This document shows positions 4,370 to 60,602 of a DNA stretch of 64,000 nucleotides, piece after piece. Each line of letters begins with the position of its first letter. Within the stretch, counting starts at the first letter, position 1. The position numbers and the translations under genes were made by a program. The DNA is from Candidatus Krumholzibacteriia bacterium (GTDB lineage Bacteria > Krumholzibacteriota > Krumholzibacteriia > Krumholzibacteriales > Krumholzibacteriaceae): assembly GCA_023131975.1 (NCBI GenBank), contig JAGLYV010000054.1, forward strand, positions 5,191-69,190, written 5' to 3'. The notes below the pieces were generated by a model, which was not told where the DNA came from, did no database searches, and saw only the letters and a program-made list of their open reading frames with translations.

Positions 4370-4427
4370 TGTGTACAATGAGTTAAGTGTAAATACAGCT
4401 CTGTTCACTGTCAAGCTCTGGAGTGAC

Positions 4428-12563: not shown

Positions 12564-12691
12564 ATTGGTCTCCTTCCGGGAGTAATTGTCCCCCGAAAAC
12601 ATCTTTATCAGATAGCAGGTCGCGCTTCAAGACACAAATCGATCTGGAGGCAGGAATAAAAAACTGCGCATTTATCAATATGTTGTGAAAA

Positions 12692-30135: not shown

Positions 30136-30201
30136 ATTCCGGGGGAGAAGATATTTCACCGGGTGAATGAATGCCAGCCGGACAGACTCGTTAGGAAGAA
30201 T

Positions 30202-32751
30202 ATGTCGGAGAAGATCCTGAACAGATACCTTGGCCTGATGGTTTTCCTGATCAGCGCCGTTGTATATATAATGACTATGGGTGGTACGGTCTCTTTCTGG
30301 GACAGCGGGGAATTCATCGCGACATCTTACATCCTGGGGATACCCCACTCTCCGGGTACTCCCCTTTACGTGCTTGTGGGCAGGGTCTTCGCCCTGCTTC
30401 CTGTTGGTATTTCCGTAGCCCAGAAAGTGAATCTGCTCTCAGCCGTCTCCGCCGCTCTCGGCGTCCTGATGGCTTATGTGTCGATGGTATATGTCGTTCG
30501 ATTCATGTTCGGGAAAGCCGTTACAGCTGCCGGCAGGATCGCAAGGTACGCCGGCCCCCTGGCAGGTTCGATGTTTCTCACATTCAGCGATACATACTGG
30601 ACCGATGCCGCGGAAGCGGAAGTGTACGCTCTGAGTTCATTCGTGATAGGACTCTGCACGGTCCTTGCCCTGAGATGGCTCAAGAATCCGGCTGGAGAGC
30701 TCGGTGAGGATGTCCGGAAAGCTATCCGGGAAAAGACCGATGGAGCCAGGGGAAACGCGCTTGTCGAAAAAAATGCGAGAGCGAAAAAGAGAGATTCGAG
30801 AAACCTTGTACTTCTTATCATCTACCTGCTTTCTCTAGGTATCGGATTCCATCTGGGAACGATCCTCGTATTCGGTGGAATCTTTATCATGTTTTTGATG
30901 GTCAGGAAGAAATCGTTCAGCAACTTCGAACTGATCGCGTTTACATTCGGTTTTGCCGTCATGGTCGCCGACATGACCGTGCACAGGCAGCCTGCTTTTA
31001 CGATAGTCGGACTGGCTGTCTTTGCCGTGCTGATAATCTGGATGACCATGTCGGAGGGCAACTTTGTCCTGACGGCGACCGCCCTGTTCGTCCTCGGCAT
31101 ATCCGTTCACTTGTTCCTCTATATCCGGTCAGGACTCGATCCGGCGATCGATGAGGTGAATCCGGAGACCTGGAAGGCTCTCTACGCGCATCTGAGAAGG
31201 GAGCAGTATCCCGCGATAAACGTGTTCACGAGAAAGGCTTCGATTCTTTTTCAGCTCGATCATTTCGCCAGGTATTTTCAAAACCAGTTCAGACTCTTCG
31301 GCGATTATTTTGTCGGAGGTATCAATATTGGTCGTCTCAGTTCCGTTATCCCGTTGTTACTTGGCCTGTACGGGATCATGGCGAACTACATCCGTGAAAA
31401 AAAGACCTGGGCACTGAATTTCACGAACCTGCTACTCAATTCTGTCGGACTGATCATCTTTCTGAATTTCAGCGACCAGGAAGTCAGGGAGCGGGACTAT
31501 TTCTATGGAGGAGCGTTCTATCTCTTTGCGATATTCATAGGGATCGGAGCGACTTCGTTCCTCATTCTCATACTGGAGCAGGCAAAAAAGACTGCCGGCG
31601 ATCTGAGGCGATTCGTCGTTCCAGCCGCGATCTTTATTCTGGTCTGTTCCATCCTTCCGGCAGGCTACCAGTGGCACAGGCACGACAAGTCAGATTTCTT
31701 CATACCACGCGATTACGCCTACAACATCCTGTGCGGTCTCGAACCTGACGCGATACTGTTTACCAACGGAGATAACGATACCTTTCCGCTCTGGTACCTG
31801 CAGTATGTGGAAGGATACAGGACCGATGTCAGGGTAGCAAACCTGAGTCTTCTCAATACATCGTGGTATATTAAACAGGTGAGAGACACCGAGCCTTCAG
31901 TGCCTCTGGACCTGACAGACGTGGAGATCGACAGGCTTCGACCGATCCGTGTGGAAGACGGTATCCTGTGGACGAAAGATCTGGCGGTCAATCATATTAT
32001 CAGGGATGTAAACTGGAAACGGCCGGTATATTTTGCCGTGACCGTACCGGGCGATGTCTGGGAGAGATATTCGGACAACCTGGAGATGCAGGGTATGGTC
32101 AGGCGGCTGGTGGCAGGTAAGGGCCGGTTCATGGTGAACGATTTCATGATAACAAGGAATCTCGAGGAGATCTTCGAGTTCAGAGGATTCCTCACTGATG
32201 GCTGGCGGAGGGACGATTCCGTTTACAGGACCCGCGAAGTGGACAACATGTTCATAAATTTTTCGATCGCCGCGTTCCAGGTGGCCCAGAACAGAGCAAA
32301 AGACAACCTGCACGGGGAAGCGGTAAAATGGGCCGAGAGGTCGTATGTCTTCGGGCCCAGGTTCGAGTGGCCCAGAAAATATCTGGGGGTCTATTATTCC
32401 AGGAACAGGCAGTATGACAAGGCTGAGGAGCATTACCTCAACCTTCTGGCAGAAGAGCCATCCAGAGGTGATTTCTGGGTAGGCCTTTCATCTGTATACG
32501 AGAGGATGGGGGATCTTGAAAGGGCTGTCCAGACCCTCGAAGATGCTTCAAAGTCATCTCTTGACCACAGAGATATATTTGGACATGGCTTTCGCCTGGC
32601 AGCTACTCTCGGGCGAAGGGATCAGGCCGTCTCATTTGTGGAGAAGTGGATTGAGGGCCATCCCGAAGATACCGAATTTAAATCGCTTCTCGATGATATT
32701 GATACGATACTTCAGAATGAGTTCGGGCTGGGTGGGAGTGACGATAACTGA
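30202..32751 (+). CDS. DUF2723 / TMEM260-like GT-C membrane glycosyltransferase with C-terminal TPR repeats (paralog 2)
   Basis: It is about 60% identical to the upstream paralog and carries the same VSFWDSGEFIATSYILGIPHSPGTPLYV motif. The ATG at 30202 follows AGGAAG. The ORF-track start at 30163 is also possible. Confidence 0.75.
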   Translation: MSEKILNRYLGLMVFLISAVVYIMTMGGTVSFWDSGEFIATSYILGIPHSPGTPLYVLVGRVFALLPVGISVAQKVNLLSAVSAALGVLMAYVSMVYVVRFMFGKAVTAAGRIARYAGPLAGSMFLTFSDTYWTDAAEAEVYALSSFVIGLCTVLALRWLKNPAGELGEDVRKAIREKTDGARGNALVEKNARAKKRDSRNLVLLIIYLLSLGIGFHLGTILVFGGIFIMFLMVRKKSFSNFELIAFTFGFAVMVADMTVHRQPAFTIVGLAVFAVLIIWMTMSEGNFVLTATALFVLGISVHLFLYIRSGLDPAIDEVNPETWKALYAHLRREQYPAINVFTRKASILFQLDHFARYFQNQFRLFGDYFVGGINIGRLSSVIPLLLGLYGIMANYIREKKTWALNFTNLLLNSVGLIIFLNFSDQEVRERDYFYGGAFYLFAIFIGIGATSFLILILEQAKKTAGDLRRFVVPAAIFILVCSILPAGYQWHRHDKSDFFIPRDYAYNILCGLEPDAILFTNGDNDTFPLWYLQYVEGYRTDVRVANLSLLNTSWYIKQVRDTEPSVPLDLTDVEIDRLRPIRVEDGILWTKDLAVNHIIRDVNWKRPVYFAVTVPGDVWERYSDNLEMQGMVRRLVAGKGRFMVNDFMITRNLEEIFEFRGFLTDGWRRDDSVYRTREVDNMFINFSIAAFQVAQNRAKDNLHGEAVKWAERSYVFGPRFEWPRKYLGVYYSRNRQYDKAEEHYLNLLAEEPSRGDFWVGLSSVYERMGDLERAVQTLEDASKSSLDHRDIFGHGFRLAATLGRRDQAVSFVEKWIEGHPEDTEFKSLLDDIDTILQNEFGLGGSDDN

Positions 32752-36815: not shown

Positions 36816-39275
36816 TTGGCAAATGACAGAGAACCCGGCAGGACGTTTGATCCTGTAACATGGCTGGATTCCGCCGCGAACTGGCAAAAAGGACTTGTAC
36901 TTGTAGTATTCCTGGTCATCGTGCTCTGTCTTCTCGTGCCCGATCTGATATTCAGTAACAAGATCTTTCTGGTCCCGGACACCAAGGCTCCTATCAGTTT
37001 CAGTGAAGTCGGGAAACAGGAGCTCACCGAGGGGACATATCCTCTATGGAATCCGTATCTGTTCTGCGGTATGCCCAGCTATCAGAGCCTTTCATATACT
37101 CCATACGTATATCCTCCCGCGTTCCTGACGTATATCCTTCAGGAGTTCATGGGATTCCCCGAGATGACATGGCTGCTGATCCACTATTTGATGGCAGGTG
37201 TCGGTATATACCTTCTTGTAAGGTCTTTCGATGTCAGAAGCTCGATCGCCATCATGGCCGGCGCCATATTCATGATCATGCCTAATTTTATCGCGGTGGG
37301 CGCGCACGGTCACGGCTCCCAGGCCTGTTCTACAGCCTATATACCATTCGCTCTTCTGTTCTGCAGGAATATTCTTTCAGGGCGTTCCAGGCTACTGAAT
37401 TCGGGACTTCTCGCTGTCGCGCTGGGGTTCCAGATGCTTCGGGGCCATATCCAGATCTCCTACTACACCTATCTTATTATCGGGTTCTTTGTCTTACTTC
37501 ATTCGGTATGTCTTGCCAGAGACCGGAAGTGGAAAGAGCTTGCCGGCAACATCGGGTTACTGGTATTCAGTATGGTCCTGGCCCTTGGAATATCGTCGGT
37601 CCTGGTATTCCCCGTGAGAGCCTATGCGGACTATTCTATCAGGGGAGGGGATGGAGGAGGCCTGGGTTACGATTATGCTACCGGATGGAGCCTTCATCCG
37701 CGCGAGATGCTTACCTTCATCTTTCCGTGGTCCTATGGATTCGGGAAGGGCACATACTGGGGCAGTATGCCTTTTACCGATTATCCGAATTATCTGGGAG
37801 TAATCACGGCGGTCTTTTCTCTACTGGCAATGACCGTGGTCAGGACCAGATGGAAGTGGTATTTCTTTTCCGCCGCTGTCCTGGCGACACTGATATCGTT
37901 CGGAAGGTTTTTCCCGGTCCTCTATGATCCCATGTTCAGGTTCATGCCTTTCTTTAACAAGTTCAGGGTGCCCGTGATGATATTGATCGTCCAGCAGGTG
38001 ATGTTCGTTGTCCTGATGGCGCTTGGGATCGAGGAATATATCAGATTGTCATCCGAGGACAGACTTCCGGCTTTTCTCAGAGTGGAAAAGCTCAAATGGG
38101 TGCTGATCGCCATGGCCGCGCTCCTGGTGATCGTCCTTGTAGCGGGTAATTCGATTCAGGACGGACTCGCCGGCGATACGGCTGTCAGGGGAAGAGTCAG
38201 GCCCCAGATGATCAGGGTGGCGGCTTCTTCCTTCGCGACGGATCTTGTAAGGACCCTGTTTATCGTTGCGGCAGTGGTGGGGATCCTGTTCGTTGCTTCA
38301 TGGAAGCGCTTGAAGCCCGGCCTGGTAATAACTTTCCTCGCGCTGCTGGCTTTATTCGATATGATCACGATAGATCACTCAGTCCTGAGACCAGAGAAGA
38401 CCTGGGCTTCCGACAGGTACAGGATCATCCAGAAAGTGGAGGCCAGGGATTCTTTTAAAGAAGAAAACAAGGTTGCCCCGATACTGGCGTTTGACGATTC
38501 CATGTTCAGGGTCTTCCCCGTTCCATACGCGAAACCGGGTAGCTGGAGTCACAACGCATTTCCGTTCAGCGACAACAGCTACATGATCTCCGGCGTCTTT
38601 TCTCTCGGTGGATATCACGCGGCGAAACTGAAGAACTACCAGGATGTGATGGATGTGATATTTGCCAGTTTCAACAGGGGAAGGATTCCCGACAAGATAC
38701 TCAACATGCTTGGCGCGAAGTATTTTGTGTCTCTTCAGCCCCTGTCCTGGGAGCGTTTCGGCTACACGAAAATACACGAGGAGGAAGGGAATAATATCTA
38801 TTTGAACCCGGCAGCTCTTCCGCGCGTATTTTTTGTGGACAGGATAAAAGTGATGACGAAAGATGAGGCGTTGACTCATCTCGTTTCCTCTACCTTCGAC
38901 CCTTCTTCTGAAGTACTCCTGCAGGCCATCCCTGAAGGCACGATCGACTCGGCCGTGGGAAGCAGTGCTGAAATAACTGATTACAGGCTCAACTCGATAA
39001 AGATCAATGCGAATGTGGATAAATCATGTATAATGGTATTAAGTGAGATCGATTATCCTGACTGGACGGCAGAAATAGACGGGGAAAAGGTCCCTGTGAT
39101 AACTGCGGATTACTGTCTAAGAGCTATAGTGGTCGGGCCGGGAGAACATGAGGTTGTTTTCAGGTATGAATCACCGTTACTGAAAAGGTCTCTGATCGTC
39201 TCGGTCATCTCTCTACTGATTTCTCTTCTTGCGGTCGGTTTGTCGCGATTTTTTCCCGCAAGAAAGGTGGCATGA
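36816..39275 (+). CDS. YfhO-family GT-C membrane glycosyltransferase
   Basis: YPLWNPYLFCGMPSYQS is present at the N-terminus. About 13 TM helices are followed by a large C-terminal extracytoplasmic domain. GAGGAGG lies 5 nt before the TTG start. Confidence 0.75.
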   Translation: MANDREPGRTFDPVTWLDSAANWQKGLVLVVFLVIVLCLLVPDLIFSNKIFLVPDTKAPISFSEVGKQELTEGTYPLWNPYLFCGMPSYQSLSYTPYVYPPAFLTYILQEFMGFPEMTWLLIHYLMAGVGIYLLVRSFDVRSSIAIMAGAIFMIMPNFIAVGAHGHGSQACSTAYIPFALLFCRNILSGRSRLLNSGLLAVALGFQMLRGHIQISYYTYLIIGFFVLLHSVCLARDRKWKELAGNIGLLVFSMVLALGISSVLVFPVRAYADYSIRGGDGGGLGYDYATGWSLHPREMLTFIFPWSYGFGKGTYWGSMPFTDYPNYLGVITAVFSLLAMTVVRTRWKWYFFSAAVLATLISFGRFFPVLYDPMFRFMPFFNKFRVPVMILIVQQVMFVVLMALGIEEYIRLSSEDRLPAFLRVEKLKWVLIAMAALLVIVLVAGNSIQDGLAGDTAVRGRVRPQMIRVAASSFATDLVRTLFIVAAVVGILFVASWKRLKPGLVITFLALLALFDMITIDHSVLRPEKTWASDRYRIIQKVEARDSFKEENKVAPILAFDDSMFRVFPVPYAKPGSWSHNAFPFSDNSYMISGVFSLGGYHAAKLKNYQDVMDVIFASFNRGRIPDKILNMLGAKYFVSLQPLSWERFGYTKIHEEEGNNIYLNPAALPRVFFVDRIKVMTKDEALTHLVSSTFDPSSEVLLQAIPEGTIDSAVGSSAEITDYRLNSIKINANVDKSCIMVLSEIDYPDWTAEIDGEKVPVITADYCLRAIVVGPGEHEVVFRYESPLLKRSLIVSVISLLISLLAVGLSRFFPARKVA

Positions 39276-39994
39276 TCTTGGAAGCACTTGTTGTCATACC
39301 GACATACAATGAGAAAGAGAATATACGGCAGATCATCGAATCGGCGCTGTCGCAGGGCGGCAATATAGAGGTGCTTGTAGTCGATGATAATTCTCCTGAC
39401 GGTACAGGCGATATCGTGGACAGTCTCTGCGAAACCAATCCCCGTATTCATGTCATTCACAGGGAAGGTAAACTGGGGCTCGGATCGGCCTATATAAAAG
39501 GGTTCAAATGGGCACTGGAGAATACGGACGCGAAATATATATTCGAGATGGATGCTGATTTTTCGCACGACCCCGGCGCGATTCCGGAATTTCTTGAAGA
39601 GATCGCGGAGAACGACCTGATTATAGGGTCGCGCTATCTCAACGGTATCAGGGTCATAAACTGGCCCCTGAGCAGACTTTTCCTCAGTACCGGGGCCAAC
39701 ATCTATACAGGTATCATTACCGGTCTTCCCCTGAAAGATTCTACCGGGGGGTTCAAGTGTTTCAGGCGAGAGGTCCTGGCCGCTCTTCCCCTGGATACTA
39801 TTCGTAGCGACGGGTATTCGTTCCAGATAGAGATGAACTTTTTCTGTTGGAAAAAAGGGTTCAGGATAAAAGAGATCCCTATAATCTTTACGGACAGGAG
39901 AATCGGTACCTCCAAGATGTCCAGGAAGATCATATGGGAAGCGGCGTTCATGGTCTGGCGCCTCAGATTCATGTCTCCCCGGCGATGGAAATAA
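39272..39994 (+). CDS. GT2 polyprenol-phosphate mannosyl/glucosyl transferase (Dpm1/Ppm1-like, soluble form)
   Basis: VVIPTYNEKENI...VVDDNSPDGT and the DXD motif DADFSHDP are present, with no TM region. The start is an ATGA overlap with yfhO. Confidence 0.75.
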   Translation: MILEALVVIPTYNEKENIRQIIESALSQGGNIEVLVVDDNSPDGTGDIVDSLCETNPRIHVIHREGKLGLGSAYIKGFKWALENTDAKYIFEMDADFSHDPGAIPEFLEEIAENDLIIGSRYLNGIRVINWPLSRLFLSTGANIYTGIITGLPLKDSTGGFKCFRREVLAALPLDTIRSDGYSFQIEMNFFCWKKGFRIKEIPIIFTDRRIGTSKMSRKIIWEAAFMVWRLRFMSPRRWK

Positions 39995-42064
39995 ATGGAT
40001 CTTTCTATAATCATCATCACGTACAACAGCCGAGTGCCTGTGGAGAAGTGTCTCCGGTCGATAGCCCAGAACCCTCCATCCTGTTCCTATGAGACGATCG
40101 TCATAGACAACGACAGCTCGGACGATACGGTAGCGATCGTGTCGGATGGATTTCCCGACTGCCGCATTGTCTCCAATGGCGATAACAGGGGATATTCCAG
40201 GGGAGTCAACCAGGGGATAGATATTTCCGATGGAGAGTACGTCCTGATCCTCAATCCCGATATAGAAGTCTCGGAAGGGTCGCTGGACAAGCTGGTCGAA
40301 TTCATGTGGACTCATCCGGAAGCGGGAATGGCCGGGTCAAGACTTCAATATCCCGATGGGACACTTCAGTATTCCTGCCGGTCGTTCTATACGATCAGCG
40401 CTCTTTTTCTCAGAAGGACTTTTCTCGGAAAGATATTTCCCCGCGCCAGAGCTTTGAGAGACCATCTCCTGCTCGACTATGACCACGAGGAAGAGAGGGA
40501 GGTAGACTGGCTTCTTGGGGCCTGCCTTATCGTCAGAAGGAGCGCTCTGAAAAAAGTCGGCAAGATGGACGAAAGATTTTTTCTCTACTTCGAGGATACG
40601 GACTGGTGCTTCAGGATGCACCAGCATGACTGGCAGGTCTGGTATATTCCATCATCTGTCATGATACATAGCTATGAACGGTCGAGCGCCGGGTCGGTTT
40701 TCAGAAAACCGTTTCTGTTTCATATGCTCAGTCTGTTGAGGTATTACGAGAAATGGGCCGGCGTGTTCTATTTTTTCCGGCGGCACCGGGGAGTATTAAA
40801 ATCTTTCGTCTTTGTGACATCTGATCTGGTAGCCATCAACGCGGCTTTCTTTGCGGCATACGGTCTGAGAGGGGCGATACAGCCGCTTTTTACGAACAGA
40901 CTTTATCCCCTCGACTGGTATGCTTTCTTCATCGTCTTCTACAATCTGATCTTTTTCATGATCTTTCTCGTGGGAGGCCTGTACAGGATAAGACGTGAGA
41001 CTACTGTCACCTCCGAGCTGTTCAAGGTGGTCAGATCGGTGCTTACTACCTTTGCCATCCTGCTTGCCGCGACATATCTGACACGGATACGTATTTATTC
41101 AAGGGCTGTGTTGCTTGGACAGGCTGTGTTTACCATAGCTTTTGTTACCGGCATCCGGAGGCTTCTCAGGTCCGTCCATGTGCGTATGGTAAGGGCCAGT
41201 TTTGACCTGAAGAGGATACTTCTGATCGGTAACGATCAGGAAGTGGAGGAAATCTCGAAATTGATCAGGGAACACCCCTCGCTCGGAATGGATATTGTGG
41301 GTCATGTCGGTGGGAGTGGAAGGACTCTCGGAGACATAGACGATCTTGCTTCCATCGCGGAAAGGTTCAGAATACAGGAGATCGTGGTCATGTCTTCATG
41401 CTTTGAGGATGGTTCGATCTCCGCCATTATCCGAAATTCCGTACGGTCAGTCTTTTCAATCCGGATTGTGGCCCCTGTGGCAAGATTTATCGGTGGAAAT
41501 GAACGTGTTGAAAAACTTGGAAGGTTTTATATCTTTCAGGTAGAAGGTGGTGCTCACCAGCTATTGCGAAGAGGGATCGCGAGAGTGATGGATGTGATTG
41601 CCGGGCTTCTATTTCTGCTTTCCGGGATATGCTACCCTCTCTGGCGAATGTATGGCAGAGCCAGCGGAAGGTTGTCATTTTTTACGGAGCAGAGGACGGG
41701 TTCCGGATCGCGGAAATTGTCCTGGCCCAGGGTGGTCCGTTCAGATGGGAGGGAAGGTTCTGACTTTCTCAAGCCATCTTTCGGCCTCAGGCTGCTTTCC
41801 GGGCAACTGGCCCTGGTCGGGATGCCTTCCGTACTATATGGCACGGTGGACAGGGACATGATCGATATCGGATCAAAGCCCGGGATAACGGGGAAATGGA
41901 GATTCTCAGATTCCGGTGATCTTGAATCGATCCTGGAGGACGAAGTGCTGGATGGGCGATGGAGAACGACAACCGGATATTTCGAGATCCTTTTCGAATC
42001 GTTCGGATACATGTTAAAAGGAAAATACCCCCTGTGGTTCTTCAACAAGGAGATGGACAAGTGA
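39995..42064 (+). CDS. Fusion protein: N-terminal GT2 glycosyltransferase + C-terminal WbaP-like polyprenyl-phosphate sugar phosphotransferase domain; catalytic DE motif not conserved
   Basis: Residues 1-250 are GT2 (IIIITYNS...VIDNDSSDDT). A polytopic region follows, with a CoA-binding-like Rossmann (ILLIGNDQEVEE...GMDIVGHVGG). The Bac_transf-like C-terminus reads LRLLSGQLALVGMPS where LDELPQL..SLVGPRP is expected. Confidence 0.6.
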   Translation: MDLSIIIITYNSRVPVEKCLRSIAQNPPSCSYETIVIDNDSSDDTVAIVSDGFPDCRIVSNGDNRGYSRGVNQGIDISDGEYVLILNPDIEVSEGSLDKLVEFMWTHPEAGMAGSRLQYPDGTLQYSCRSFYTISALFLRRTFLGKIFPRARALRDHLLLDYDHEEEREVDWLLGACLIVRRSALKKVGKMDERFFLYFEDTDWCFRMHQHDWQVWYIPSSVMIHSYERSSAGSVFRKPFLFHMLSLLRYYEKWAGVFYFFRRHRGVLKSFVFVTSDLVAINAAFFAAYGLRGAIQPLFTNRLYPLDWYAFFIVFYNLIFFMIFLVGGLYRIRRETTVTSELFKVVRSVLTTFAILLAATYLTRIRIYSRAVLLGQAVFTIAFVTGIRRLLRSVHVRMVRASFDLKRILLIGNDQEVEEISKLIREHPSLGMDIVGHVGGSGRTLGDIDDLASIAERFRIQEIVVMSSCFEDGSISAIIRNSVRSVFSIRIVAPVARFIGGNERVEKLGRFYIFQVEGGAHQLLRRGIARVMDVIAGLLFLLSGICYPLWRMYGRASGRLSFFTEQRTGSGSRKLSWPRVVRSDGREGSDFLKPSFGLRLLSGQLALVGMPSVLYGTVDRDMIDIGSKPGITGKWRFSDSGDLESILEDEVLDGRWRTTTGYFEILFESFGYMLKGKYPLWFFNKEMDK

Positions 42065-44394
42065 AACGCTCGATCTTGATACTTGTTTGTGTATTGTTCG
42101 GGTTTGCGGGCAGCGCGTCCGGAGCCGCGGGGGACTGGAATGTCTATTTAGATGCCAGCGCGATCGTCGATATTTCGATGATGGGAGACAGCCTCTGGTG
42201 CGCGTCGAATGGTGGAATACTCCTGTTCGATCTCACAGATTCGACATTCACTCAGTTTCTGGATGGTCTGCAGTTGAGATCAGGCGATATTAGTTCGGTA
42301 GAGATCGACATTAACGGGAGTATCTGGGCCGGGTTCCTGTCAAAGGGAATGGTGAGGATAGACGACCCCGGAATTACTTCGGAGGTTACGCATTTCAGCG
42401 AAAACTCTCCTTTCAACCAGATCCTCAGCGACAGTGTGACATGTCTGGAAAGAGCCGGTAGCGACGTATACTATGGTACCACGAGGGGTATCAGAAAATT
42501 CTTTGATAATATCCATTCCTTCGAACCGAATCTTTCCGATAGTCTTGCCGGAAGAAAGATCAACGATCTCTTTTTCGATGGATCGATCAATTCTCTATGG
42601 ATAGGGTTCGATCACGGTGTTGCCCTGTTCGACAGGGGGTCCTTCGAATACAGGTCCTGGAATGTCGGTCAGGTACACTCGATATGCGAGCACCAGGGAG
42701 GGATGTACATCGCCACGGATACTGGAGTGCTGCTTTTCAATGGAACTGACTGGGAAGATACGGGAGGTGGTTTCCATGTGCCGCCCGTATTGGGGATCTC
42801 CTCGGGAGGTGGTGAGATCTTCGCTGCTACCGCGGAGAGAGTGTACAGGTATAACGGGACTTACTGGGCGAGTGTCGAGGCTACCGGCCTGAAGACGATC
42901 TTCAACGATGATTACAGGATAAAGTCGAATCATATCAGGACGATCGTAGTCGATGACAACGGTTCTCCCTGGATCGGGGGAAGGAGACCTGAAGGAGGGA
43001 TCAGGGGCAGTTACCTCTCCACTTACGATGGCGTTGCCTGGAAAAATAAACGTATGAAGCAGCTTTCGCAGAACAGTGTCATCAGGGTCGACACCGCTCC
43101 GGGAGGAAGCGTCTGGGTCAGCACCGGATATGGTATCAACTATCTGTCGCCGACAGGAGGCTGGTCGGTATATACAAAGATGAGGATCGATACGGGGGAT
43201 GACGAGGCCCTCTCATATTTTGCCTCGAACCTCGCGCTGCTTTTTGACGACCAGAACATACTCTGGTGCAATTCACTCAACTATGATCTGGACATGATAG
43301 ACGTGGGAGATCCCTTTGACCCGGACGATGATATCTGGAGGCATTTTTCGACGGATGACCTGACGAGCATCACATCGGACCGGTTTGTCAGTGCCAGACT
43401 CGACCCGGTCGGAAACAGGTGGTTTCTCTCCGACGATGATCTGCAGCAGGAAGGGAAATGGGGAATCGACATTGTTGACAGAACTGCCTCGAACTGGCTT
43501 TCGGTCAACCCGGGAACGACACCGGCTATGGCTGGTGGGGCGATCTTTGATTGCGCTTTCGATGCCGCGGGAGTCTATCTCGCGATGCGTGGATATGGAG
43601 TCCAGTACTGGCACACCGGCGGATTTTCGTGGGACGACCTCACGAACACTTCAGACGATTACTGGATAACGGTCCTCGATCAGGATGACCTGCCCGCGAC
43701 TCAGCTTACATCGATCGAGATCTCGAATGACGGTTCCCGCTGGATCGGTACTTCTTCGGGGCTGGTGCATGATCGTGGTATCGACGGAATCGATTCTTTT
43801 TCGGTGAAGACCAGCTACAGCGGTGAAGGCCTGGTCGGACTGCTGGTCTATGACCTCGAATTCGACGCATACGGAAATCTCTGGGTAGCTACCAATCAGG
43901 GTCTTAACAGGATCAATCCCGATGGAGAGATCGACAGGGTATATACGACGGCGTCCCTCTGGGAGGACCGGTTCCAGTTTGTCTATCCTGAAACGGTTAT
44001 TTCTCCTCTACCTTCTCCTGTCTGCCTGTGGCTGGCCTGCGACGGGGCGGAGGACATCTTGTGGATAGCTACCGATGCCGGACTCGCCCGGCTTGATGTC
44101 ACTCCCGAAGTGGAAGTAGATATCCAGCTGGTACGGGCCGTGCTTTACCCTAATCCGATCCATACCGCGAGGGGTGACGACAGGTTGAGGATATCCCGGA
44201 TTTCGGGTACAGTCGATATAAGGGTATATACTCTGGCAGGTGAACTTGTGCATGAAGTGGACGGAGTCTCCGATGGTGGAGAAGCCTGGGACCTGCTTTC
44301 CATAAACGGATACAAGGCCGTTTCAGGCATCTATATTGTAAGGATCATTGGTACGAACAGTAGCGAGGTGAGAAAGGTCGCGATTATCAGATGA
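42061..44394 (+). CDS. Secreted beta-propeller (two-component-regulator-propeller-like repeats) protein with T9SS-type C-terminal sorting domain
   Basis: A signal peptide MKRSILILVCVLFGFAGSASG follows a GTG at 42061 that overlaps the upstream stop. Repeated W..T..G propeller blades are present. The C-terminal LYPNP...VDIRVYTLAGELV...SGIYIVRI matches a Por_Secre_tail/FlgD-Ig domain. Confidence 0.7.
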   Translation: MKRSILILVCVLFGFAGSASGAAGDWNVYLDASAIVDISMMGDSLWCASNGGILLFDLTDSTFTQFLDGLQLRSGDISSVEIDINGSIWAGFLSKGMVRIDDPGITSEVTHFSENSPFNQILSDSVTCLERAGSDVYYGTTRGIRKFFDNIHSFEPNLSDSLAGRKINDLFFDGSINSLWIGFDHGVALFDRGSFEYRSWNVGQVHSICEHQGGMYIATDTGVLLFNGTDWEDTGGGFHVPPVLGISSGGGEIFAATAERVYRYNGTYWASVEATGLKTIFNDDYRIKSNHIRTIVVDDNGSPWIGGRRPEGGIRGSYLSTYDGVAWKNKRMKQLSQNSVIRVDTAPGGSVWVSTGYGINYLSPTGGWSVYTKMRIDTGDDEALSYFASNLALLFDDQNILWCNSLNYDLDMIDVGDPFDPDDDIWRHFSTDDLTSITSDRFVSARLDPVGNRWFLSDDDLQQEGKWGIDIVDRTASNWLSVNPGTTPAMAGGAIFDCAFDAAGVYLAMRGYGVQYWHTGGFSWDDLTNTSDDYWITVLDQDDLPATQLTSIEISNDGSRWIGTSSGLVHDRGIDGIDSFSVKTSYSGEGLVGLLVYDLEFDAYGNLWVATNQGLNRINPDGEIDRVYTTASLWEDRFQFVYPETVISPLPSPVCLWLACDGAEDILWIATDAGLARLDVTPEVEVDIQLVRAVLYPNPIHTARGDDRLRISRISGTVDIRVYTLAGELVHEVDGVSDGGEAWDLLSINGYKAVSGIYIVRIIGTNSSEVRKVAIIR

Positions 44395-45830
44395 TGAACG
44401 AGAGCCGAAAAAAAGTATTGATCGTGGGGGCAGGTGAAGCAGGCAGGATGGTTGCTGACGAGATCAGGTCGCATCCCGGCCTCGATGCCATGGTCGCTGG
44501 ATTTCTCGACGATGATCCGGCCCTGTCGGGTGAAAAGATCGGAGAAGCTATAGTCCTTGGAAATACGGCTGTGCTTCAGGATGTAGTCAGGAATAATGGG
44601 ATCGGAGAGATAATAATCGCCGTGCCGACGGCACCCGGGAAATTCGTGCGGGAGATGGTCAGACGCTGTCGTGAGGCCGGAGTTCCCTACAAGATAGTTC
44701 CCGGTGTCATGGAGATCATAAAGGGTGACGTCCATATCGATCAGATCAGGGAAGTGAGGATCGATGACCTTCTCGGAAGAGAGACGGTAAGTTTCGACGT
44801 GGATGCCGCGAGGAGACATTTTGCCGGCAAGCGTGTCCTGGTCACGGGGGCGGGCGGTTCGATCGGTAGCGAGCTCTGCAGGCAGATAGCCGAAGCCGGC
44901 CCCGAAGGCCTCGTTCTGTTCGGCAGGGGTGAGAACAGTATTTTTGATATCGAGGAAGATCTGAAGGCTGTTGACCCGGACCTGGACATAAGCATGGTGA
45001 TCGGGAATCTTACCGACGCGGGAAAGATCGAGAGGGTACTCTCCGAGTATTCTCCGCATATTGTTTTTCACGCGGCGGCCCATAAGCACGTACACTATAT
45101 GGAAAGAGACCCTTCGGAAGCTGTCACAAACAATGTAAAAGGAAGCATAGGCCTGATCAGGGCCTGTGATCGTTCCGGAGTAGAACGTTTTGTTTTCATC
45201 TCCAGCGACAAGGCTGCCGATCCGACAGGAGTGATGGGTGCTACCAAGAGAGTCATCGAGATATTTTTGAGTGAGTTCGAGGGAGCAGACAGGTGCAGCT
45301 ATATCACCGTCAGGTTTGGAAATGTTATAGGAAGCCGTGGCAGTGTTGTCCCACTCTTCCTGAGGCAGATCGCTCGTGGAGGTCCGGTGACTGTCAGCGA
45401 TGCGGAAGCGACAAGGTTTTTCATGACGGTTCGTGAGGCTGCTTCACTCGTTATCAGGTCTTCGATTATCGGTAATGGCGGAGAGATATTCATCCTCGAT
45501 ATGGGAGAACCTGTAAATATCCTTGAAATGGCGAGAGATATCATCATGCTTACAGGGCATGAGCCTGACGCGGAGATCCCGATCAGGATCACCGGTCTCA
45601 GGGACGGCGAAAAACTTCACGAAGTCCTGAGTAGTGAAAAAGAACTCCTTAAGCCGTCAGAGGACGATAAGATCTTTTCCGCGATTCCGTCAGGCAAGGT
45701 CCCGGAAAACATTACGGGCAAGATCGATCAGTTGATCGAGGAAGCGGAAAAGGGTGACCATGATGAAGTCCTTCTTCGTTTATCTGCTATCATTCCTGGA
45801 TTCTCCGCGAATAAAAGACCTCTTTCCTGA
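44391..45830 (+). CDS. Polysaccharide biosynthesis protein CapD/PglF/WbpM-like UDP-sugar 4,6-dehydratase (soluble form)
   Basis: An N-terminal Rossmann VLIVGAGEAGRMVADE is present, followed by a Polysacc_synt_2 core (VLVTGAGGSIGSEL, YGATKRV). Confidence 0.75.
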   Translation: MMNESRKKVLIVGAGEAGRMVADEIRSHPGLDAMVAGFLDDDPALSGEKIGEAIVLGNTAVLQDVVRNNGIGEIIIAVPTAPGKFVREMVRRCREAGVPYKIVPGVMEIIKGDVHIDQIREVRIDDLLGRETVSFDVDAARRHFAGKRVLVTGAGGSIGSELCRQIAEAGPEGLVLFGRGENSIFDIEEDLKAVDPDLDISMVIGNLTDAGKIERVLSEYSPHIVFHAAAHKHVHYMERDPSEAVTNNVKGSIGLIRACDRSGVERFVFISSDKAADPTGVMGATKRVIEIFLSEFEGADRCSYITVRFGNVIGSRGSVVPLFLRQIARGGPVTVSDAEATRFFMTVREAASLVIRSSIIGNGGEIFILDMGEPVNILEMARDIIMLTGHEPDAEIPIRITGLRDGEKLHEVLSSEKELLKPSEDDKIFSAIPSGKVPENITGKIDQLIEEAEKGDHDEVLLRLSAIIPGFSANKRPLS

Positions 45831-53078: not shown

Positions 53079-53999
53079 ATGATAGTGGAGCATCTGCCTG
53101 TAATGGTAGAAGAAGTGACCGGTTATCTGATAACCGATCCGGAAGGTATTTACGTGGACGCTACTCTCGGGCTTGGTGGACATACTGAAAGTTTTCTCAA
53201 AGCGGCAGGTCCAAAGGCCAGGGTCATCGGGATAGATCTGGACGAAAACGCGATAAGAATGGCACGTGAGAGACTGGCTGAATACGGTGAACGTGTCACT
53301 TACGTATGTGGCAATTTCAGAGACATCGATACCCATCTTGGGGGAGGAAAATACAACGGGATCCTGGTGGATCTCGGTATGTCGTCATTTCAGATCTCGG
53401 ACAGGGAACGGGGATTCAGCTATATGGAAGATGGACCTCTGGGCATGTCGATGGGGACAGAAGGAAGATCGGTCAGATCCCTTCTGGCAGATGGAGAAGA
53501 GAAGGAGATCGCCGATATCATATGGAGATTCGGAGAGGAAAAGAAAAGTAGAAGAATAGCAAAGTGGATTGTAAAGACGCGTGAGAATGAGGAGATAGTG
53601 AGCACATCTCAGCTTCGTTTGATTGTGGAGAAGGCCCTCCCATCCCGGGGGCTGATCGGATCACTTTCCCGCGTTTTTCAGGCATTCAGAATATGGGCGA
53701 ACGATGAACTGGAAAACCTAAGAGCCTTCTTACCCCAGGCGGCCGCGCTCCTGATACCCGGCGGTCGCCTGGCGGTTCTCAGTTATCATTCGCTTGAGGA
53801 CCGGATCGTCAAAAATTATTTCCGACAGGAAGAAAAGGGATGTATATGTCCGCCGGATTTCCCGCAGTGCAACTGCGGAAGGGTACCTACCCTTAAATTA
53901 CTTATGCGGCGCGCGGGCAAGCCGTCCCTGGAAGAGATAGAGAGCAATCCAAGGTCCCGGAGCGCCAGGCTTCGGGTAGCAGAGAGGTTGGCCGTATGA
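53079..53999 (+). CDS. rsmH: 16S rRNA (cytosine1402-N4)-methyltransferase RsmH (MraW)
   Basis: HLPVMVEEV...YVDATLGLGGHT and the DLGMSSFQ motif are RsmH signatures. Confidence 0.9.
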   Translation: MIVEHLPVMVEEVTGYLITDPEGIYVDATLGLGGHTESFLKAAGPKARVIGIDLDENAIRMARERLAEYGERVTYVCGNFRDIDTHLGGGKYNGILVDLGMSSFQISDRERGFSYMEDGPLGMSMGTEGRSVRSLLADGEEKEIADIIWRFGEEKKSRRIAKWIVKTRENEEIVSTSQLRLIVEKALPSRGLIGSLSRVFQAFRIWANDELENLRAFLPQAAALLIPGGRLAVLSYHSLEDRIVKNYFRQEEKGCICPPDFPQCNCGRVPTLKLLMRRAGKPSLEEIESNPRSRSARLRVAERLAV

Positions 54000-54421
54000 A
54001 GACACACACTGATTATCTTGACGCTGTAACGCTGGTCATCAAGAGAGCCCTCGAGGGCAGGATCAGCCCATTGAACTTTCTTCTGATAGTGGGGTTTTTC
54101 TCGACCCTTGTCCTTCTTTACATATCGCTTCATGTACATTTTCAGACCCTGTCCGGGGAACTGAACGATGAAGTACGGCTCAGACAGGAGCTGACCGAGG
54201 AAAGGACATTCCTGACAGCAGAACACGATCGACTCAGTTCGCCTGAGAGGATCATACCCCTCGTGCAGGAACTTGGGTTGAGAGCCGGTTCAAGCGAAGA
54301 GGTAAAGAGAGTAGCTTTTTATAACAGCCGGAAGCTTTTTAAAAAAGAATCGGCCGGCTGGGCACAGATACAGCTTAACGAAGGCGGGAAATTACTTCCG
54401 CCTGACAGACCGGAGAATTGA
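53996..54421 (+). CDS. ftsL: Cell division protein FtsL-like (bitopic, coiled coil)
   Basis: A single TM helix LLIVGFFSTLVLLYISL and a periplasmic coiled coil are present. It sits between rsmH and ftsI. Confidence 0.6.
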   Translation: MKTHTDYLDAVTLVIKRALEGRISPLNFLLIVGFFSTLVLLYISLHVHFQTLSGELNDEVRLRQELTEERTFLTAEHDRLSSPERIIPLVQELGLRAGSSEEVKRVAFYNSRKLFKKESAGWAQIQLNEGGKLLPPDRPEN

Positions 54422-60566: not shown

Positions 60567-60602
60567 TCTTCAGTTGCCGGTGACCGGCAGAGGCAAGGAA
60601 GA

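What the first reader, a model, noticed from the sequence alone, without database searches (positions are those of the whole stretch)
39995..42064. GT2 fused to a WbaP-like phosphoglycosyl transferase whose catalytic DE dyad and KFRTM block appear substituted
Residues 1-250 are a GT2 Rossmann domain. The remainder has the WbaP architecture: TM helices, a CoA-binding-like Rossmann and a Bac_transf-like C-terminus. Where the family has ...LDELPQL.NVL.G.MSLVGPRP, this protein has ...FGLRLLSGQLALVGMPS. Where KFRTM is expected, it has LSWPRV. This suggests either a pseudo-enzyme scaffold or a divergent initiating enzyme fused to the second-step GT. Either case is uncommon.
Basis: partly seen in the sequence, partly recalled or inferred. 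Interest (0 to 1): 0.6.

Follow-up and report, generated by a model that had tools for sequence, protein, structure and literature searches.

The report
GT2 enzyme with a dead WbaP-type module
This gene fuses an intact family-2 glycosyltransferase to a WbaP-like membrane module that keeps its fold but has lost every residue needed to start glycan synthesis; the same loss is conserved in hundreds of uncultured FCB-group bacteria, so it looks like the first clear "pseudo-enzyme" version of an initiating phosphoglycosyl transferase.

Summary
ORF 39995-42064 (689 aa) is an intact GT2 domain fused to a full large-monoPGT (WbaP) architecture: four TM helices, the PF13727 DUF and a Bac_transf-fold C-terminus. 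The catalytic core is gone. KFRTM is replaced by R579-VVRS, a 33-residue block carrying DPRxT..GxxLR is deleted, the Asp-Glu dyad is L592-K593, and GPRP is GMPS.

This is not a frameshift or private decay. About 120 full-length orthologues and relatives in 540 species-level genomes (the best 80 from Krumholzibacteriota, Latescibacterota, Eisenbacteria) share the loss. They also carry their own invariant residues (R579, D590, K593, W635, R636, C-terminal YPxWF).

Related GT2-LgPGT fusions with fully canonical motifs exist, so the ancestor was probably a genuine bifunctional PGT-GT. Constraint is inverted: the PGT domain is the least conserved domain here and among the most conserved in intact fusions.

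Degenerate fusions sit in a conserved triad, YfhO (GT-C), a TM-less DPM1-like GT2, then the fusion. Intact ones sit in ordinary glycan operons without that triad, one of them a classical Wza/Wzz/Wzy EPS operon.

Best reading: only the GT2 domain is catalytic, and the ex-PGT module is a membrane and polyprenyl-phosphate-binding scaffold. This is a new variant of a known kind, of moderate interest.

The parts
39995..40699 (+). GT2 (GT-A) catalytic domain, residues 1-235. Invariant D38, N39, D43, N87-P88-D89 (DXD equivalent) and E200-D201-x-D203-W204.
   Evidence: PF00535 E 9e-26 and PF13641. This is the most conserved domain, at 65% mean identity. The motifs MDERFFLYFEDxDW are shared with intact fusions. 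Foldseek finds GT-A enzymes such as WrtF, SpsA and ppGalNAcT.
40706..40783 (+). Two amphipathic interface helices, residues 238-263, with the near-invariant motif LSLLRYYEKW(N).
   Evidence: AF2 helices 238-248 and 252-263. Invariant H243, S246, Y250, K253 and W254. The motif is shared with intact fusions.
40787..41194 (+). Four-helix transmembrane bundle homologous to the WbaP N-terminus, residues 265-400. It is unusually conserved, with invariant D277, R292, R334, R370, R388 and R392.
   Evidence: Profile alignment to WbaP 7-331. AF2 helices 265-294, 306-326, 338-363 and 370-400. Identity is 56%, against 21% in intact fusions.
41195..41539 (+). Rossmann-like DUF of large PGTs (CoA_binding_3 / PF13727), residues about 401-515.
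   Evidence: PF13727 E 4e-11. The alternating beta/alpha pattern appears in the model. It aligns to the WbaP DUF.
41552..41665 (+). Long membrane helix, residues 520-557, equivalent to the re-entrant helix of monoPGTs. R530 and D533 are conserved. The helix-breaking Pro present in at least 90% of the family is missing at this position in this protein.
   Evidence: Aligned to WbaP 270-329. AF2 helix 520-557. The gap at the family Pro column is seen.
41723..41737 (+). W577-P578-R579-V-V, the counterpart of canonical (L/Y)-x-K-F-R; R579 replaces the Lys of KFRTM.
   Evidence: L-INS-i alignment with intact fusions. P578 is at least 90% conserved and R579 is 99% conserved.
41753..41773 (+). E587-G-S-D590-F-L592-K593. 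This is the junction of the 33-residue deletion (loss of DPRxT..GxxLR) and the site of the former Asp-Glu dyad, now L592-K593. D590 is invariant, and E587 and K593 are 97% conserved.
   Evidence: HMMER leaves family positions 580-597 against WbaP 332-387 unaligned.
41807..41830 (+). L-A-L-V-G609-M-P611-S, the counterpart of M-S-L-V-G-P-R-P. The Arg of GPRP is lost. The family consensus is GPPx, and this lineage has GMPS.
41879..41902 (+). P-G630-I-T-G633-K-W635-R636. The PGxTG motif is retained, and the canonical Q is replaced by an invariant R636.
   Evidence: PF02397 positions 97-149 match here.
42020..42040 (+). Family-specific C-terminal motif G676-x-Y678-P679-x-W681-F682, absent from canonical PGT domains.
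   Evidence: Invariant or near-invariant columns. Absent in the intact fusions.
39272..39994 (+). Upstream partner gene: a 240-aa, TM-less DPM1/PpgS/AglJ-like polyprenyl-phosphate-sugar synthase (GT2). Its stop abuts the fusion's ATG.
   Evidence: NCBIfam matches to AglJ, PpgS and dolichyl-phosphate hexose transferase. Adjacent in 80 of 82 loci. Junction shown.
36816..39275 (+). YfhO-like GT-C glycosyltransferase (819 aa), the first member of the conserved triad.
   Evidence: PF09586. Present upstream in 77 of 82 loci and in the distant degenerate lineages L086 and L087.

Best explanation
The protein descends from a bifunctional GT2 / large monotopic PGT (WbaP-type) fusion whose PGT domain is now a pseudo-enzyme.

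Shown here:
- The monoPGT fold and the whole Lg-PGT architecture are retained.
- The Asp-Glu dyad, most of KFRTM, the DPRxT..GxxLR block and the GPRP arginine are all absent. By alignment to PglC, the deleted block includes the equivalent of the UndP-binding Arg88.
- The loss is shared by the whole clade and is under purifying selection for a different set of residues.

Inferred:
- The only catalytic centre is the N-terminal inverting GT-A/GT2 domain. Its nucleotide-binding Asp, NPD (the DXD equivalent) and ED-x-D motifs are all invariant.
- This domain adds a sugar to a polyprenyl-phosphate-linked sugar acceptor at the cytoplasmic face of the membrane.
- The ex-PGT module (interface helices, four TM helices, DUF and the dead PGT domain) acts as membrane anchor, probable dimerisation platform and lipid-carrier binding site that presents the acceptor to the GT2 domain.
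- The lipid-linked acceptor is made by another enzyme. The best candidate is the translationally coupled TM-less DPM1-like GT2 immediately upstream.
- The pathway feeds the GT-C enzymes of the cluster (YfhO, two TMEM260-like, PMT_2-like) rather than being initiated by a PGT.
For: - Homology and fold: TIGR03025 E 4e-31; family profile against WbaP E 4e-20; domain-only profile against WbaP 2e-12 and PglC 2e-9. The domain model (pLDDT 81.6) has only WbaP and PglC as significant PDB neighbours, with TMq 0.58 and 0.55.
- Loss of catalytic residues, fixed by alignment with intact fusions. It is shared by all ~118 orthologues and all 62 FCB-lineage fusions examined, in three different degenerate forms.
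- Intact homologous fusions exist: P0150, P0171, P0178, P0183, P0185, P0198 and P0237 all have KFRTM + LDE[LI]PQ + GPRP. Their GT2 and interface-helix motifs are the same, at 43% identity.
- Inverted constraint. Family: GT2 .65, TM .56, DUF .43, PGT-like .35. Intact fusions: GT2 .40, TM .21, DUF .18, PGT .41.
- The PGT-like domain still has invariant residues and a new C-terminal motif, so it is not a neutral relic.
- Context. The YfhO, DPM1-like GT2, fusion triad occurs in 77-80 of 82 loci and in the distant degenerate lineages L086 and L087. Intact fusions sit in ordinary glycan operons without the triad, and one of them (P0185) is next to Wza/Wzz/Wzy_C.
- In PglC, the Asp-Glu motif is the catalytic centre and Arg88/Arg145 bind UndP (PMC10519829, PMC10186338). 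In this protein these positions align to non-equivalent residues or fall in the deleted block.
Against: - No separate PGT gene lies within +-10 kb in any of the 82 loci, and MraY is the only other one in the 64-kb window. The cluster carries a Wzx-type flippase and several GTs, so the fusion could in principle still be the initiating enzyme.
- An invariant Asp (D590), near-invariant E565 and E587, and invariant or near-invariant basic residues (R567, R579, K593, R636) cluster around the former active site. They could form a remodelled catalytic or ligand site.
- The acceptor of the GT2 domain and any lipid binding by the dead domain are inferred, not shown.
- Model coordinates could not be inspected, so the geometry of the remodelled pocket is unknown.
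Confidence: 0.6

Rival explanations
1. Divergent but still active initiating PGT. The remodelled site (D590 with E587/E565 as acidic residues; R567, R579, K593 and R636 as phosphate ligands) still transfers a sugar-phosphate to undecaprenyl phosphate. The protein would then be a true bifunctional PGT-GT that starts the glycan encoded by this cluster.
For: - No other monoPGT lies within +-10 kb in 82 loci or anywhere in the window.
- The cluster has a Wzx-like flippase, a PglF-like dehydratase and several GTs, which normally imply an Und-PP-linked intermediate.
- D590 is 100% conserved and lies two residues before the old Asp position, at the start of the same helix.
- The K-to-R579 change is conservative.
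Against: - Four separate catalytic elements are lost together: the DE dyad, the F-R-T-M part of KFRTM, the DPRxT..GxxLR block and the GPRP Arg.
- The 33-residue deletion removes the segment that, in PglC and WbaP, forms the mobile loop or helix-turn-helix over the NDP-sugar pocket (PMC10942596).
- Sister lineages have lost the motifs in different ways and share no acidic pair. The Eisenbacteria type has D-R, S-R or N-G.
- The domain is the least conserved part of the protein, the opposite of intact fusions.
- Initiating PGTs are often encoded outside the cluster, as with WecA-dependent O-antigen clusters (general knowledge).
Confidence: 0.13
2. Inert relic. The WbaP-derived part is only a membrane anchor for the GT2 domain. 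The dead PGT domain binds nothing and persists only because it is structurally entangled with the anchor.
For: The PGT-like domain is the most variable region, at 35-36% identity. It shows different erosion patterns in different lineages. This window's lineage has eroded further, with GPP changed to GMP and the helix Pro lost.
Against: - The domain is kept at full length, with the fold intact, in every full-length orthologue and locus copy examined; relatives occur in 540 species-level genomes across three candidate phyla.
- About 20 invariant or near-invariant residues remain, including charged ones (E565, R567, R579, E587, D590, K593, R636), plus a newly gained conserved C-terminal G-x-YP-x-WF motif.
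- A pure anchor would not need about 170 extra residues.
Confidence: 0.17
3. Regulatory sensor. The DUF and the dead PGT domain bind a nucleotide (as UMP binds the WbaP DUF) or free Und-P, and allosterically gate the GT2 domain to match carrier-lipid availability.
For: The WbaP DUF has been assigned a nucleotide-sensing regulatory role (PMC10942596). The DUF and the PGxTG/W-R segment are retained.
Against: There is no direct evidence. The DUF is weakly conserved here (43%), and a Rossmann glycine motif is only partly present (G412, E416). This reading overlaps with, rather than excludes, the scaffold model.
Confidence: 0.08
4. Artefact or pseudogene. The divergence would come from a frameshift, a mis-assembly or recent decay of a normal PGT.
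For: None found.
Against: The 689-codon frame is intact, the same length as the orthologues (686-692 aa), and an 88%-identical orthologue shares every substitution. The gene is tightly coupled to its neighbours. Synteny is conserved in 80 or more genomes.
Confidence: 0.01

Closest known systems
Large monotopic phosphoglycosyl transferases (Lg-PGT), prototype S. enterica WbaP (PDB 8T53, 9S7S; TIGR03022/03025; PF13727 + PF02397)
   Same: Same order of modules: four-TM bundle, Rossmann-like DUF, membrane helix, then a monoPGT-fold domain. The match is significant by sequence profile and by fold. The R-x-x-D start of the membrane helix, the F-x-[QE]-x-R-x-G strand, L-x-G-x-[ML]-S-L-V-G and P-G-x-T-G are all retained.
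   Different: There is no Asp-Glu dyad (L592-K593 instead). KFRTM is reduced to a single Arg. A 33-residue block with DPRxT..GxxLR is deleted. GPRP is replaced by GMPS (GPPx in the family). The protein scores below the Pfam and TIGRFAM cut-offs. It has an N-terminal GT2 domain and a new C-terminal YPxWF motif. The TM bundle is far more conserved than in intact relatives.
Bifunctional monoPGTs (Bi-PGT class: a GT or acetyltransferase fused to a monoPGT core; PMC11626204, PMC10942596). The intact GT2-LgPGT fusions found here include P0185 of a Calditrichota MAG (KAA3617961.1).
   Same: Same fusion. The GT2 domain belongs to the same subfamily (43% identity, shared MDERFFLYFEDxDW and LSxLRYYxKWN motifs), followed by the Lg-PGT module.
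   Different: In the intact fusions the PGT domain is canonical and as conserved as GT2. Those genes sit in ordinary glycan operons without the triad, and one (P0185) lies next to Wza/Wzz/Wzy. Here the PGT domain is catalytically stripped, and the gene sits in a YfhO / DPM1-like GT2 triad.
Small monoPGT PglC (C. concisus, PDB 8G1N / 8E37)
   Same: The C-terminal domain has the same fold (Foldseek E 8e-5, TMq 0.55; profile E 2e-9).
   Different: The PglC catalytic Asp93-Glu94 and the UndP-binding Arg88 and Arg145 (PMC10519829, PMC10186338) have no equivalents in register.
Multi-component transmembrane glycosylation systems (GT2 Und-P-sugar synthase CsbB/GtlA, flippase GtcA, GT-C YfhO/GtlB; PMC8035078), and membrane-partner-dependent DPM synthases (human DPM1 with DPM2/3, mycobacterial Ppm1 with Ppm2; recalled from general knowledge)
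   Same: The gene is flanked by a YfhO-type GT-C and a DPM1/PpgS-like GT2 in 77-80 of 82 loci. The small GT2 lacks TM helices, like DPM1 and Ppm1, which need a membrane partner.
   Different: No known system of this kind includes a PGT-derived protein. Whether the fusion is a component of such a system is inferred from synteny only.

Membership tests
Monotopic PGT superfamily (PF02397 Bac_transf) | Asp-Glu catalytic dyad at the N-terminus of the helix preceding L-x-G-x-M-S-x-V-G-P-R-P | tested here: not met
   Aligned residues are L592-K593. No orthologue among about 118, and none of the 62 FCB-lineage fusions, has the dyad.
Monotopic PGT superfamily (PF02397 Bac_transf) | K-F-[RK]-[TS]-M motif after the beta-hairpin | tested here: not met
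   The counterpart is R579-V-V-R-S. Only the basic character of the first residue is kept.
Monotopic PGT superfamily (PF02397 Bac_transf) | DPRxT..GxxLR block, including the equivalent of UndP-binding Arg88 of PglC and the loop over the NDP-sugar pocket | tested here: not met
   A 33-residue gap relative to intact fusions. 18 family positions face 56 WbaP residues.
Monotopic PGT superfamily (PF02397 Bac_transf) | G-P-R-P motif | tested here: not met
   G609-M-P611-S here, and GPP[PAS] in the family.
Monotopic PGT superfamily (PF02397 Bac_transf) | P-G-x-T-G motif and the C-terminal helices | tested here: met
   P629-G-I-T-G633. HMMER aligns 598-677 to WbaP 388-472 and to PglC 102-186.
Monotopic PGT superfamily (PF02397 Bac_transf) | Score at or above the Pfam gathering threshold | tested here: not met
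   No hit on the full protein. The isolated domain scores 17.1 bits against a cut-off of 27.
Monotopic PGT superfamily (PF02397 Bac_transf) | MonoPGT fold (membrane helix, beta-hairpin, alpha/beta core) | tested here: met
   Domain model pLDDT 81.6. The only significant PDB neighbours are WbaP 8T53 (TMq 0.58, rmsd 4.4 A over 163 columns) and PglC 8G1N.
Monotopic PGT superfamily (PF02397 Bac_transf) | Re-entrant (helix-break-helix) membrane helix with a Ser-Pro type break | tested here: inconclusive
   R530 and D533 are conserved, and a Pro is present in at least 90% of the family. This protein has a gap at that column and a Pro six residues later. DSSP shows a continuous helix 520-557. Topology cannot be determined with these tools.
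Monotopic PGT superfamily (PF02397 Bac_transf) | Phosphoglycosyl transfer to polyprenyl phosphate with NMP release | not testable with these tools
   This needs a biochemical assay.
Large monoPGT (Lg-PGT) architecture | N-terminal four-TM bundle plus the PF13727 DUF preceding the PGT domain | tested here: met
   PF13727 E 4e-11. Profile alignment to WbaP 7-331. Four predicted TM helices.
GT2 / GT-A inverting glycosyltransferases (PF00535) | Pfam score above cut-off, a nucleotide-binding Asp, a DXD-type metal motif and an acidic catalytic base | tested here: met
   91.2 bits against a cut-off of 23.3. D38, N87-P88-D89 and E200-D201-x-D203 are invariant. Catalytic activity itself was not tested.
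Bifunctional monoPGT (Bi-PGT) | A second catalytic domain fused to a functional monoPGT core | tested here: not met
   The fusion architecture is present and is homologous to intact fusions, but the PGT core lacks the catalytic residues.
Three-component (GT2 / flippase / GT-C) extracytoplasmic glycosylation system | Co-encoded polyprenyl-phosphate-sugar synthase and GT-C transferase | tested here: met
   A DPM1/PpgS-like GT2 and YfhO lie immediately upstream in 80 and 77 of 82 loci. Whether the fusion itself is a functional component is not testable with these tools.

The most novel reading that the evidence does not exclude
The dead PGT module has been repurposed as a polyprenyl-phosphate-binding membrane subunit. 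It docks the TM-less DPM1-like synthase encoded immediately upstream, playing the role that DPM3/DPM2 or Ppm2 play for DPM1/Ppm1. It then hands the resulting Und-P-sugar to its own fused GT2 domain. In this clade, glycan assembly would therefore have switched from a pyrophosphate-linked, PGT-initiated route to a monophosphate-linked, DPM1-initiated route, as in Haloferax AglJ-initiated N-glycan assembly on Dol-P. This route would supply the YfhO, TMEM260-like and PMT_2-like GT-C enzymes of a conserved envelope or protein-glycosylation cluster next to dcw.
Probability: 0.25. Interest if true: 0.75.

Novelty: new variant of a known kind. Interest (0 to 1): 0.55.

Why it matters
Monotopic PGTs are treated as the committed, catalytically uniform gatekeepers of bacterial glycoconjugate synthesis. 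The held literature describes small, large and bifunctional classes, all of them active. I found no paper that combines the terms 'phosphoglycosyl transferase' and 'pseudoenzyme'.

Four consequences follow from a conserved clade that keeps the fold and the full WbaP architecture but has shed the catalytic machinery:

1. It would be the first pseudo-PGT.
2. It shows that automatic annotation of such proteins as 'sugar transferase / polyprenyl glycosylphosphotransferase' overcalls initiating enzymes.
3. It offers a natural experiment for separating lipid-carrier binding, dimerisation and scaffolding from catalysis in Lg-PGTs, whose accessory domains are still poorly understood (PMC10942596).
4. 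It flags a strictly conserved GT-C-rich glycosylation cluster beside the division and cell-wall genes of Krumholzibacteriota, Latescibacterota and Eisenbacteria, phyla with no cultured model. In that cluster the initiating chemistry may differ from the textbook route.

Tried and rejected
- **Frameshift, assembly error or pseudogene.** Rejected. The frame is intact, the length equals that of the orthologues, and an 88%-identical orthologue has the same substitutions.
- **A displaced Asp-Glu pair.** I searched for one by four routes: ungapped extension of the HMMER alignments, L-INS-i with intact fusions, regular-expression scans and the PF02397 profile. None was found. Only D590 lies nearby, at position -2.
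- **A separate PGT near the gene.** An HMM built from seven intact PGT domains was run against all ORFs of 82 loci and of the window. It hit only the fusion genes, and nothing in the window at E<=1. Pfam scans of essentially every ORF of at least 150 aa on the coding strand found only MraY.
- **Key PglC papers.** I tried to read Ray 2018, Lukose 2015 and O'Toole 2021. None is held. Residue roles were taken from PMC10519829, PMC10186338 and PMC10942596 instead.
- **Pocket geometry.** Only secondary structure and fold-search statistics were used.
- **Whole-genome PGT scan.** The complete genomes carrying the family (CP070727.1 and others) could not be scanned for other PGTs, because only +-10 kb flanks are retrievable.
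- **The GT2 domain as a DPM1/GtrB-type polyprenyl-phosphate transferase.** I considered this and think it less likely. Its motifs (NPD, ED-x-D) and best family matches (rhamnosyltransferase TIGR01556, MftF, EpsD) are those of GT2s that act on sugar hydroxyls, and the same GT2 subtype is fused to active PGTs.
Full report
**What is there.** The ORF at 39995-42064 (+) encodes 689 residues. Its ATG directly follows the TAA of the upstream gene. Its stop overlaps a GTG at 42061 (GTGA) that starts the downstream gene with a signal peptide, so the gene sits in a tightly coupled operon.

Pfam finds GT2 (PF00535, residues 4-141, E 9e-26; PF13641, residues 3-235) and the large-PGT DUF (PF13727, residues 328-493, E 4e-11), but no PF02397. 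NCBIfam models for EPS_sugtrans, WcaJ and WbaP match residues about 276-571. That is only profile positions 2-302 of about 445, at a third of the required score.

**Is the C-terminus really a PGT domain?** Yes, by both sequence and fold.
- phmmer aligns residues about 599-675 to WbaP 390-472.
- A 74-sequence family profile (A1) matches solved WbaP at E 4e-20 in two blocks: family 265-579 to WbaP 7-331, and family 598-677 to WbaP 388-472. It matches PglC at E 7e-7.
- A profile of the isolated domain (A2) still finds WbaP (2e-12) and PglC (2e-9).
- The AlphaFold model of the whole protein (pLDDT 79) has WbaP 8T53 as its top PDB hit.
- A model of residues 515-689 alone (pLDDT 81.6, pTM 0.77) has exactly two significant PDB neighbours: WbaP (TMq 0.58, rmsd 4.4 A over 163 columns) and PglC (TMq 0.55).

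**Are the catalytic residues gone?** Yes. HMMER cannot align family positions 580-597 with WbaP 332-387.

The exhaustive representative search recovered homologous ~700-aa GT2-LgPGT fusions that are fully canonical. P0150, P0171, P0178, P0183, P0185, P0198 and P0237 all have KFRTM, LDE[LI]PQ, GPRP and PGxTG. Aligning these with the family fixes the register:
- The Lys of KFRTM aligns to R579, and the rest of that motif is lost.
- A 33-residue block carrying the conserved DPRxT..GxxLR motif is deleted.
- Asp-Glu aligns to L592-K593.
- GPRP aligns to G-M-P-S (GPPx in the family).
- The Q after PGxTG-x-W aligns to R636.

In PglC the active site is centred on Asp93-Glu94, and UndP binding depends on Arg88 and Arg145 (PMC10186338, PMC10519829). 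The deleted segment corresponds to the mobile loop or helix-turn-helix that closes the substrate pocket in PglC and WbaP (PMC10942596). PF02397 itself matches only profile positions 97-149, after the dyad, at 17.1 bits against a cut-off of 27. No Asp-Glu pair occurs elsewhere in register. The only nearby acidic invariant is D590, two residues upstream, at the start of the same helix.

**Is this decay of one gene or a family trait?** It is a family trait.
- The homologue search returned 767 hits, with about 118 full-length orthologues (46-88% identity, 684-712 aa). The named ones come from Krumholzibacteriota and Latescibacterota MAGs. Every one has the same substitutions.
- Within the family the PGT-like domain is the most variable part (about 36% identity, against 65% for GT2). 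It nevertheless keeps R530, D533, E565, R567, P578, R579, G585, E587, D590 (100%), K593, G603, G609, P611, G630, G633, W635, R636, S669 and a family-specific C-terminal G676-x-Y-P-x-W-F.
- A scan of one genome per GTDB species found 540 genomes with a relative. The best 80 are from Krumholzibacteriota, Latescibacterota and Eisenbacteria.
- All 62 copies that could be aligned lack KFRTM, DPRxT, DE and GPRP, in three distinct forms:
  - this family: WPR..GRE..SD..K..GPP;
  - a second type: GPSDxVNLPLFW..GPYP;
  - an Eisenbacteria type that still reads RRFxxRHGL[DS]RFPxLxNVLxGEMSLVGPEP.

Different erosion of the same site in sister lineages is what a domain released from catalytic constraint should show.

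**Constraint is inverted relative to active relatives.**

| Domain | Intact fusions | This family |
|---|---|---|
| GT2 | 0.40 | 0.65 |
| Interface helices + TM | 0.21 | 0.56 |
| DUF | 0.18 | 0.43 |
| PGT / PGT-like | 0.41 | 0.35 |

Values are mean pairwise identities. The GT2 domains of both groups are 43% identical and share the MDERFFLYFEDxDW and LSxLRYYxKWN motifs. The fusion therefore predates the loss, and the ancestor was most likely a true bifunctional PGT-GT (the Bi-PGT class of PMC11626204).

**Genomic context.** The window carries a large glycan cluster in this order: methyltransferase, GT4, LPG_synthase_TM protein, two TMEM260-like GT-C/TPR proteins, epimerase, GT2, GT4, GT2, YfhO-like GT-C, a 240-aa TM-less DPM1/PpgS/AglJ-like GT2, the fusion, a secreted beta-propeller, a PglF-like dehydratase, a FemAB-like protein, a Wzx-like flippase, GT4, a PMT_2-like GT-C and a methyltransferase. 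The dcw cluster follows (mraW, ftsI, murE, murF, mraY, murD, ftsW).
- The order is collinear in relatives at only about 50% identity, including a complete 4.1-Mb genome.
- Across 82 loci the fusion is preceded by the DPM1-like GT2 in 80 and by YfhO in 77.
- More distant degenerate fusions (P0154, and P0162 of Ca. Edwardsbacteria) show the same triad.
- Intact fusions do not. P0185 (Calditrichota) lies between UDP-glucose dehydrogenase and Wza/Wzz/Wzy_C. P0198 and P0269 sit among sugar-nucleotide enzymes and GTs with no YfhO or DPM1-like neighbour.
- No separate monoPGT gene lies within +-10 kb of any degenerate fusion, and MraY is the only other PGT in the 64-kb window.

**Mechanism (inference).** The GT2 domain is the only catalytic centre. 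D38, N87-P88-D89 and E200-D201-x-D203 are invariant. Its best family matches are GT2s that glycosylate sugar hydroxyls, such as rhamnosyltransferase TIGR01556, MftF and EpsD. The same GT2 subtype is fused to active PGTs, where the obvious acceptor is the Und-PP-sugar made next door. I therefore infer that it extends a polyprenyl-phosphate-linked sugar.

The WbaP-derived module no longer makes that substrate. It most likely anchors the enzyme, dimerises it (WbaP is a dimer through its DUF, PMC10942596) and binds the lipid-linked acceptor through the remodelled, still charged pocket (R567, R579, K593, R636, E565, E587, D590). The tight coupling with a TM-less DPM1-like synthase and a GT-C enzyme suggests that the acceptor, or the pathway, is monophosphate-linked, but this is not shown.

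Confidence that the PGT domain is catalytically dead is about 0.8. Confidence in the full scaffold model is about 0.6.

**Rivals.**
- A divergent but active PGT (about 0.13). It is kept alive by the absence of any other PGT near the cluster and by the invariant D590.
- An inert relic (about 0.17). The invariant charged residues, the new conserved C-terminal motif and full-length retention across three phyla argue against it.
- A regulatory sensor role (about 0.08). This overlaps with the scaffold model.
- An artefact or pseudogene. Excluded.

**Novelty and interest.** The architecture belongs to a known kind (the Lg-PGT and Bi-PGT classes). The conserved catalytic loss, with re-association to a YfhO / DPM1-like triad, is not described in the held literature: no paper combines 'phosphoglycosyl transferase' with 'pseudoenzyme', and the PGT surveys read here mention no inactive members. 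I rate it a new variant of a known kind, interest 0.55. A PGT specialist would find it notable and directly testable. The organisms are uncultured, however, and the function remains inferred.

Noticed in passing
window 42061-44394 (+); the listed ORF starts at 41959: The downstream gene most likely starts at GTG 42061, overlapping the fusion's stop as GTGA, with a signal peptide (VKRSILILVCVLFGFAGSASGA). It encodes a ~780-aa beta-propeller with Reg_prop repeats and a weak T9SS C-terminal sorting domain. It follows the fusion in 64 of 82 loci, and could be a secreted or outer-membrane target or partner of the glycosylation system.
   Followed up: partly
window 27571-30135 and 30163-32751 (+): Two tandem paralogues (854 and 862 aa) with an N-terminal TMEM260-like GT-C domain (E 4e-35 and 6e-38) and C-terminal TPR repeats. 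They are bacterial homologues of the human protein O-mannosyltransferase TMEM260, and at least one copy is conserved in relatives' loci.
   Followed up: partly
window 39272-39994 (+): A 240-aa DPM1/PpgS/AglJ-like GT2 with no TM helix and an amphipathic C-terminus. Its stop codon abuts the fusion's ATG, and it co-occurs with degenerate fusions in 80 of 82 loci. A phosphomannomutase and a mannose-1-phosphate guanylyltransferase lie at 3131-5522, consistent with a GDP-mannose supply.
   Followed up: partly
window 44391-45830 (+): A PglF-like UDP-sugar 4,6-dehydratase (Polysacc_synt_2, E 3e-100). It lacks the usual N-terminal TM bundle but keeps part of the same PF13727 DUF found in Lg-PGTs. No DegT-type aminotransferase was seen in the cluster.
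   Followed up: no
window 24432-52006, followed by 53079-63121: The whole ~28-kb glycan cluster, with four or five GT-C enzymes, lies directly upstream of the dcw division and cell-wall cluster (mraW, ftsI, murE, murF, mraY, murD, ftsW). The same adjacency to mraZ or mraW is seen in L008, L040 and L086.
   Followed up: partly
window 41552-41830 compared with the family (P0001 shares these features): This lineage, together with its 88%-identical relative P0001, shows extra erosion beyond the family norm. The helix-breaking Pro of the membrane helix is deleted at its usual column, and GPP is changed to G-M-P.
   Followed up: partly
window 39110-40315 (-): A 401-aa antisense ORF overlaps the 3' end of the YfhO-like gene, the whole small DPM1-like GT2 gene and the start of the fusion gene. 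It is almost certainly a spurious shadow ORF of this G+C-balanced, strongly + strand-coded region.
   Followed up: no
window 26476-27507 (+), and L087 2470-3369: An LPG_synthase_TM (MprF flippase-like, PF03706) protein is conserved at the head of the cluster, and sits next to a GT4 upstream of YfhO in Ca. Edwardsbacteria. It is a candidate lipid-linked-sugar flippase for the GT-C enzymes.
   Followed up: no
window 12692-14167 (+) and 10266-12602 (-): SelA (selenocysteine synthase, E 2e-129) shows the organism uses selenocysteine. A 777-aa protein carries two Amidase_3 (N-acetylmuramoyl-L-alanine amidase) stretches.
   Followed up: no
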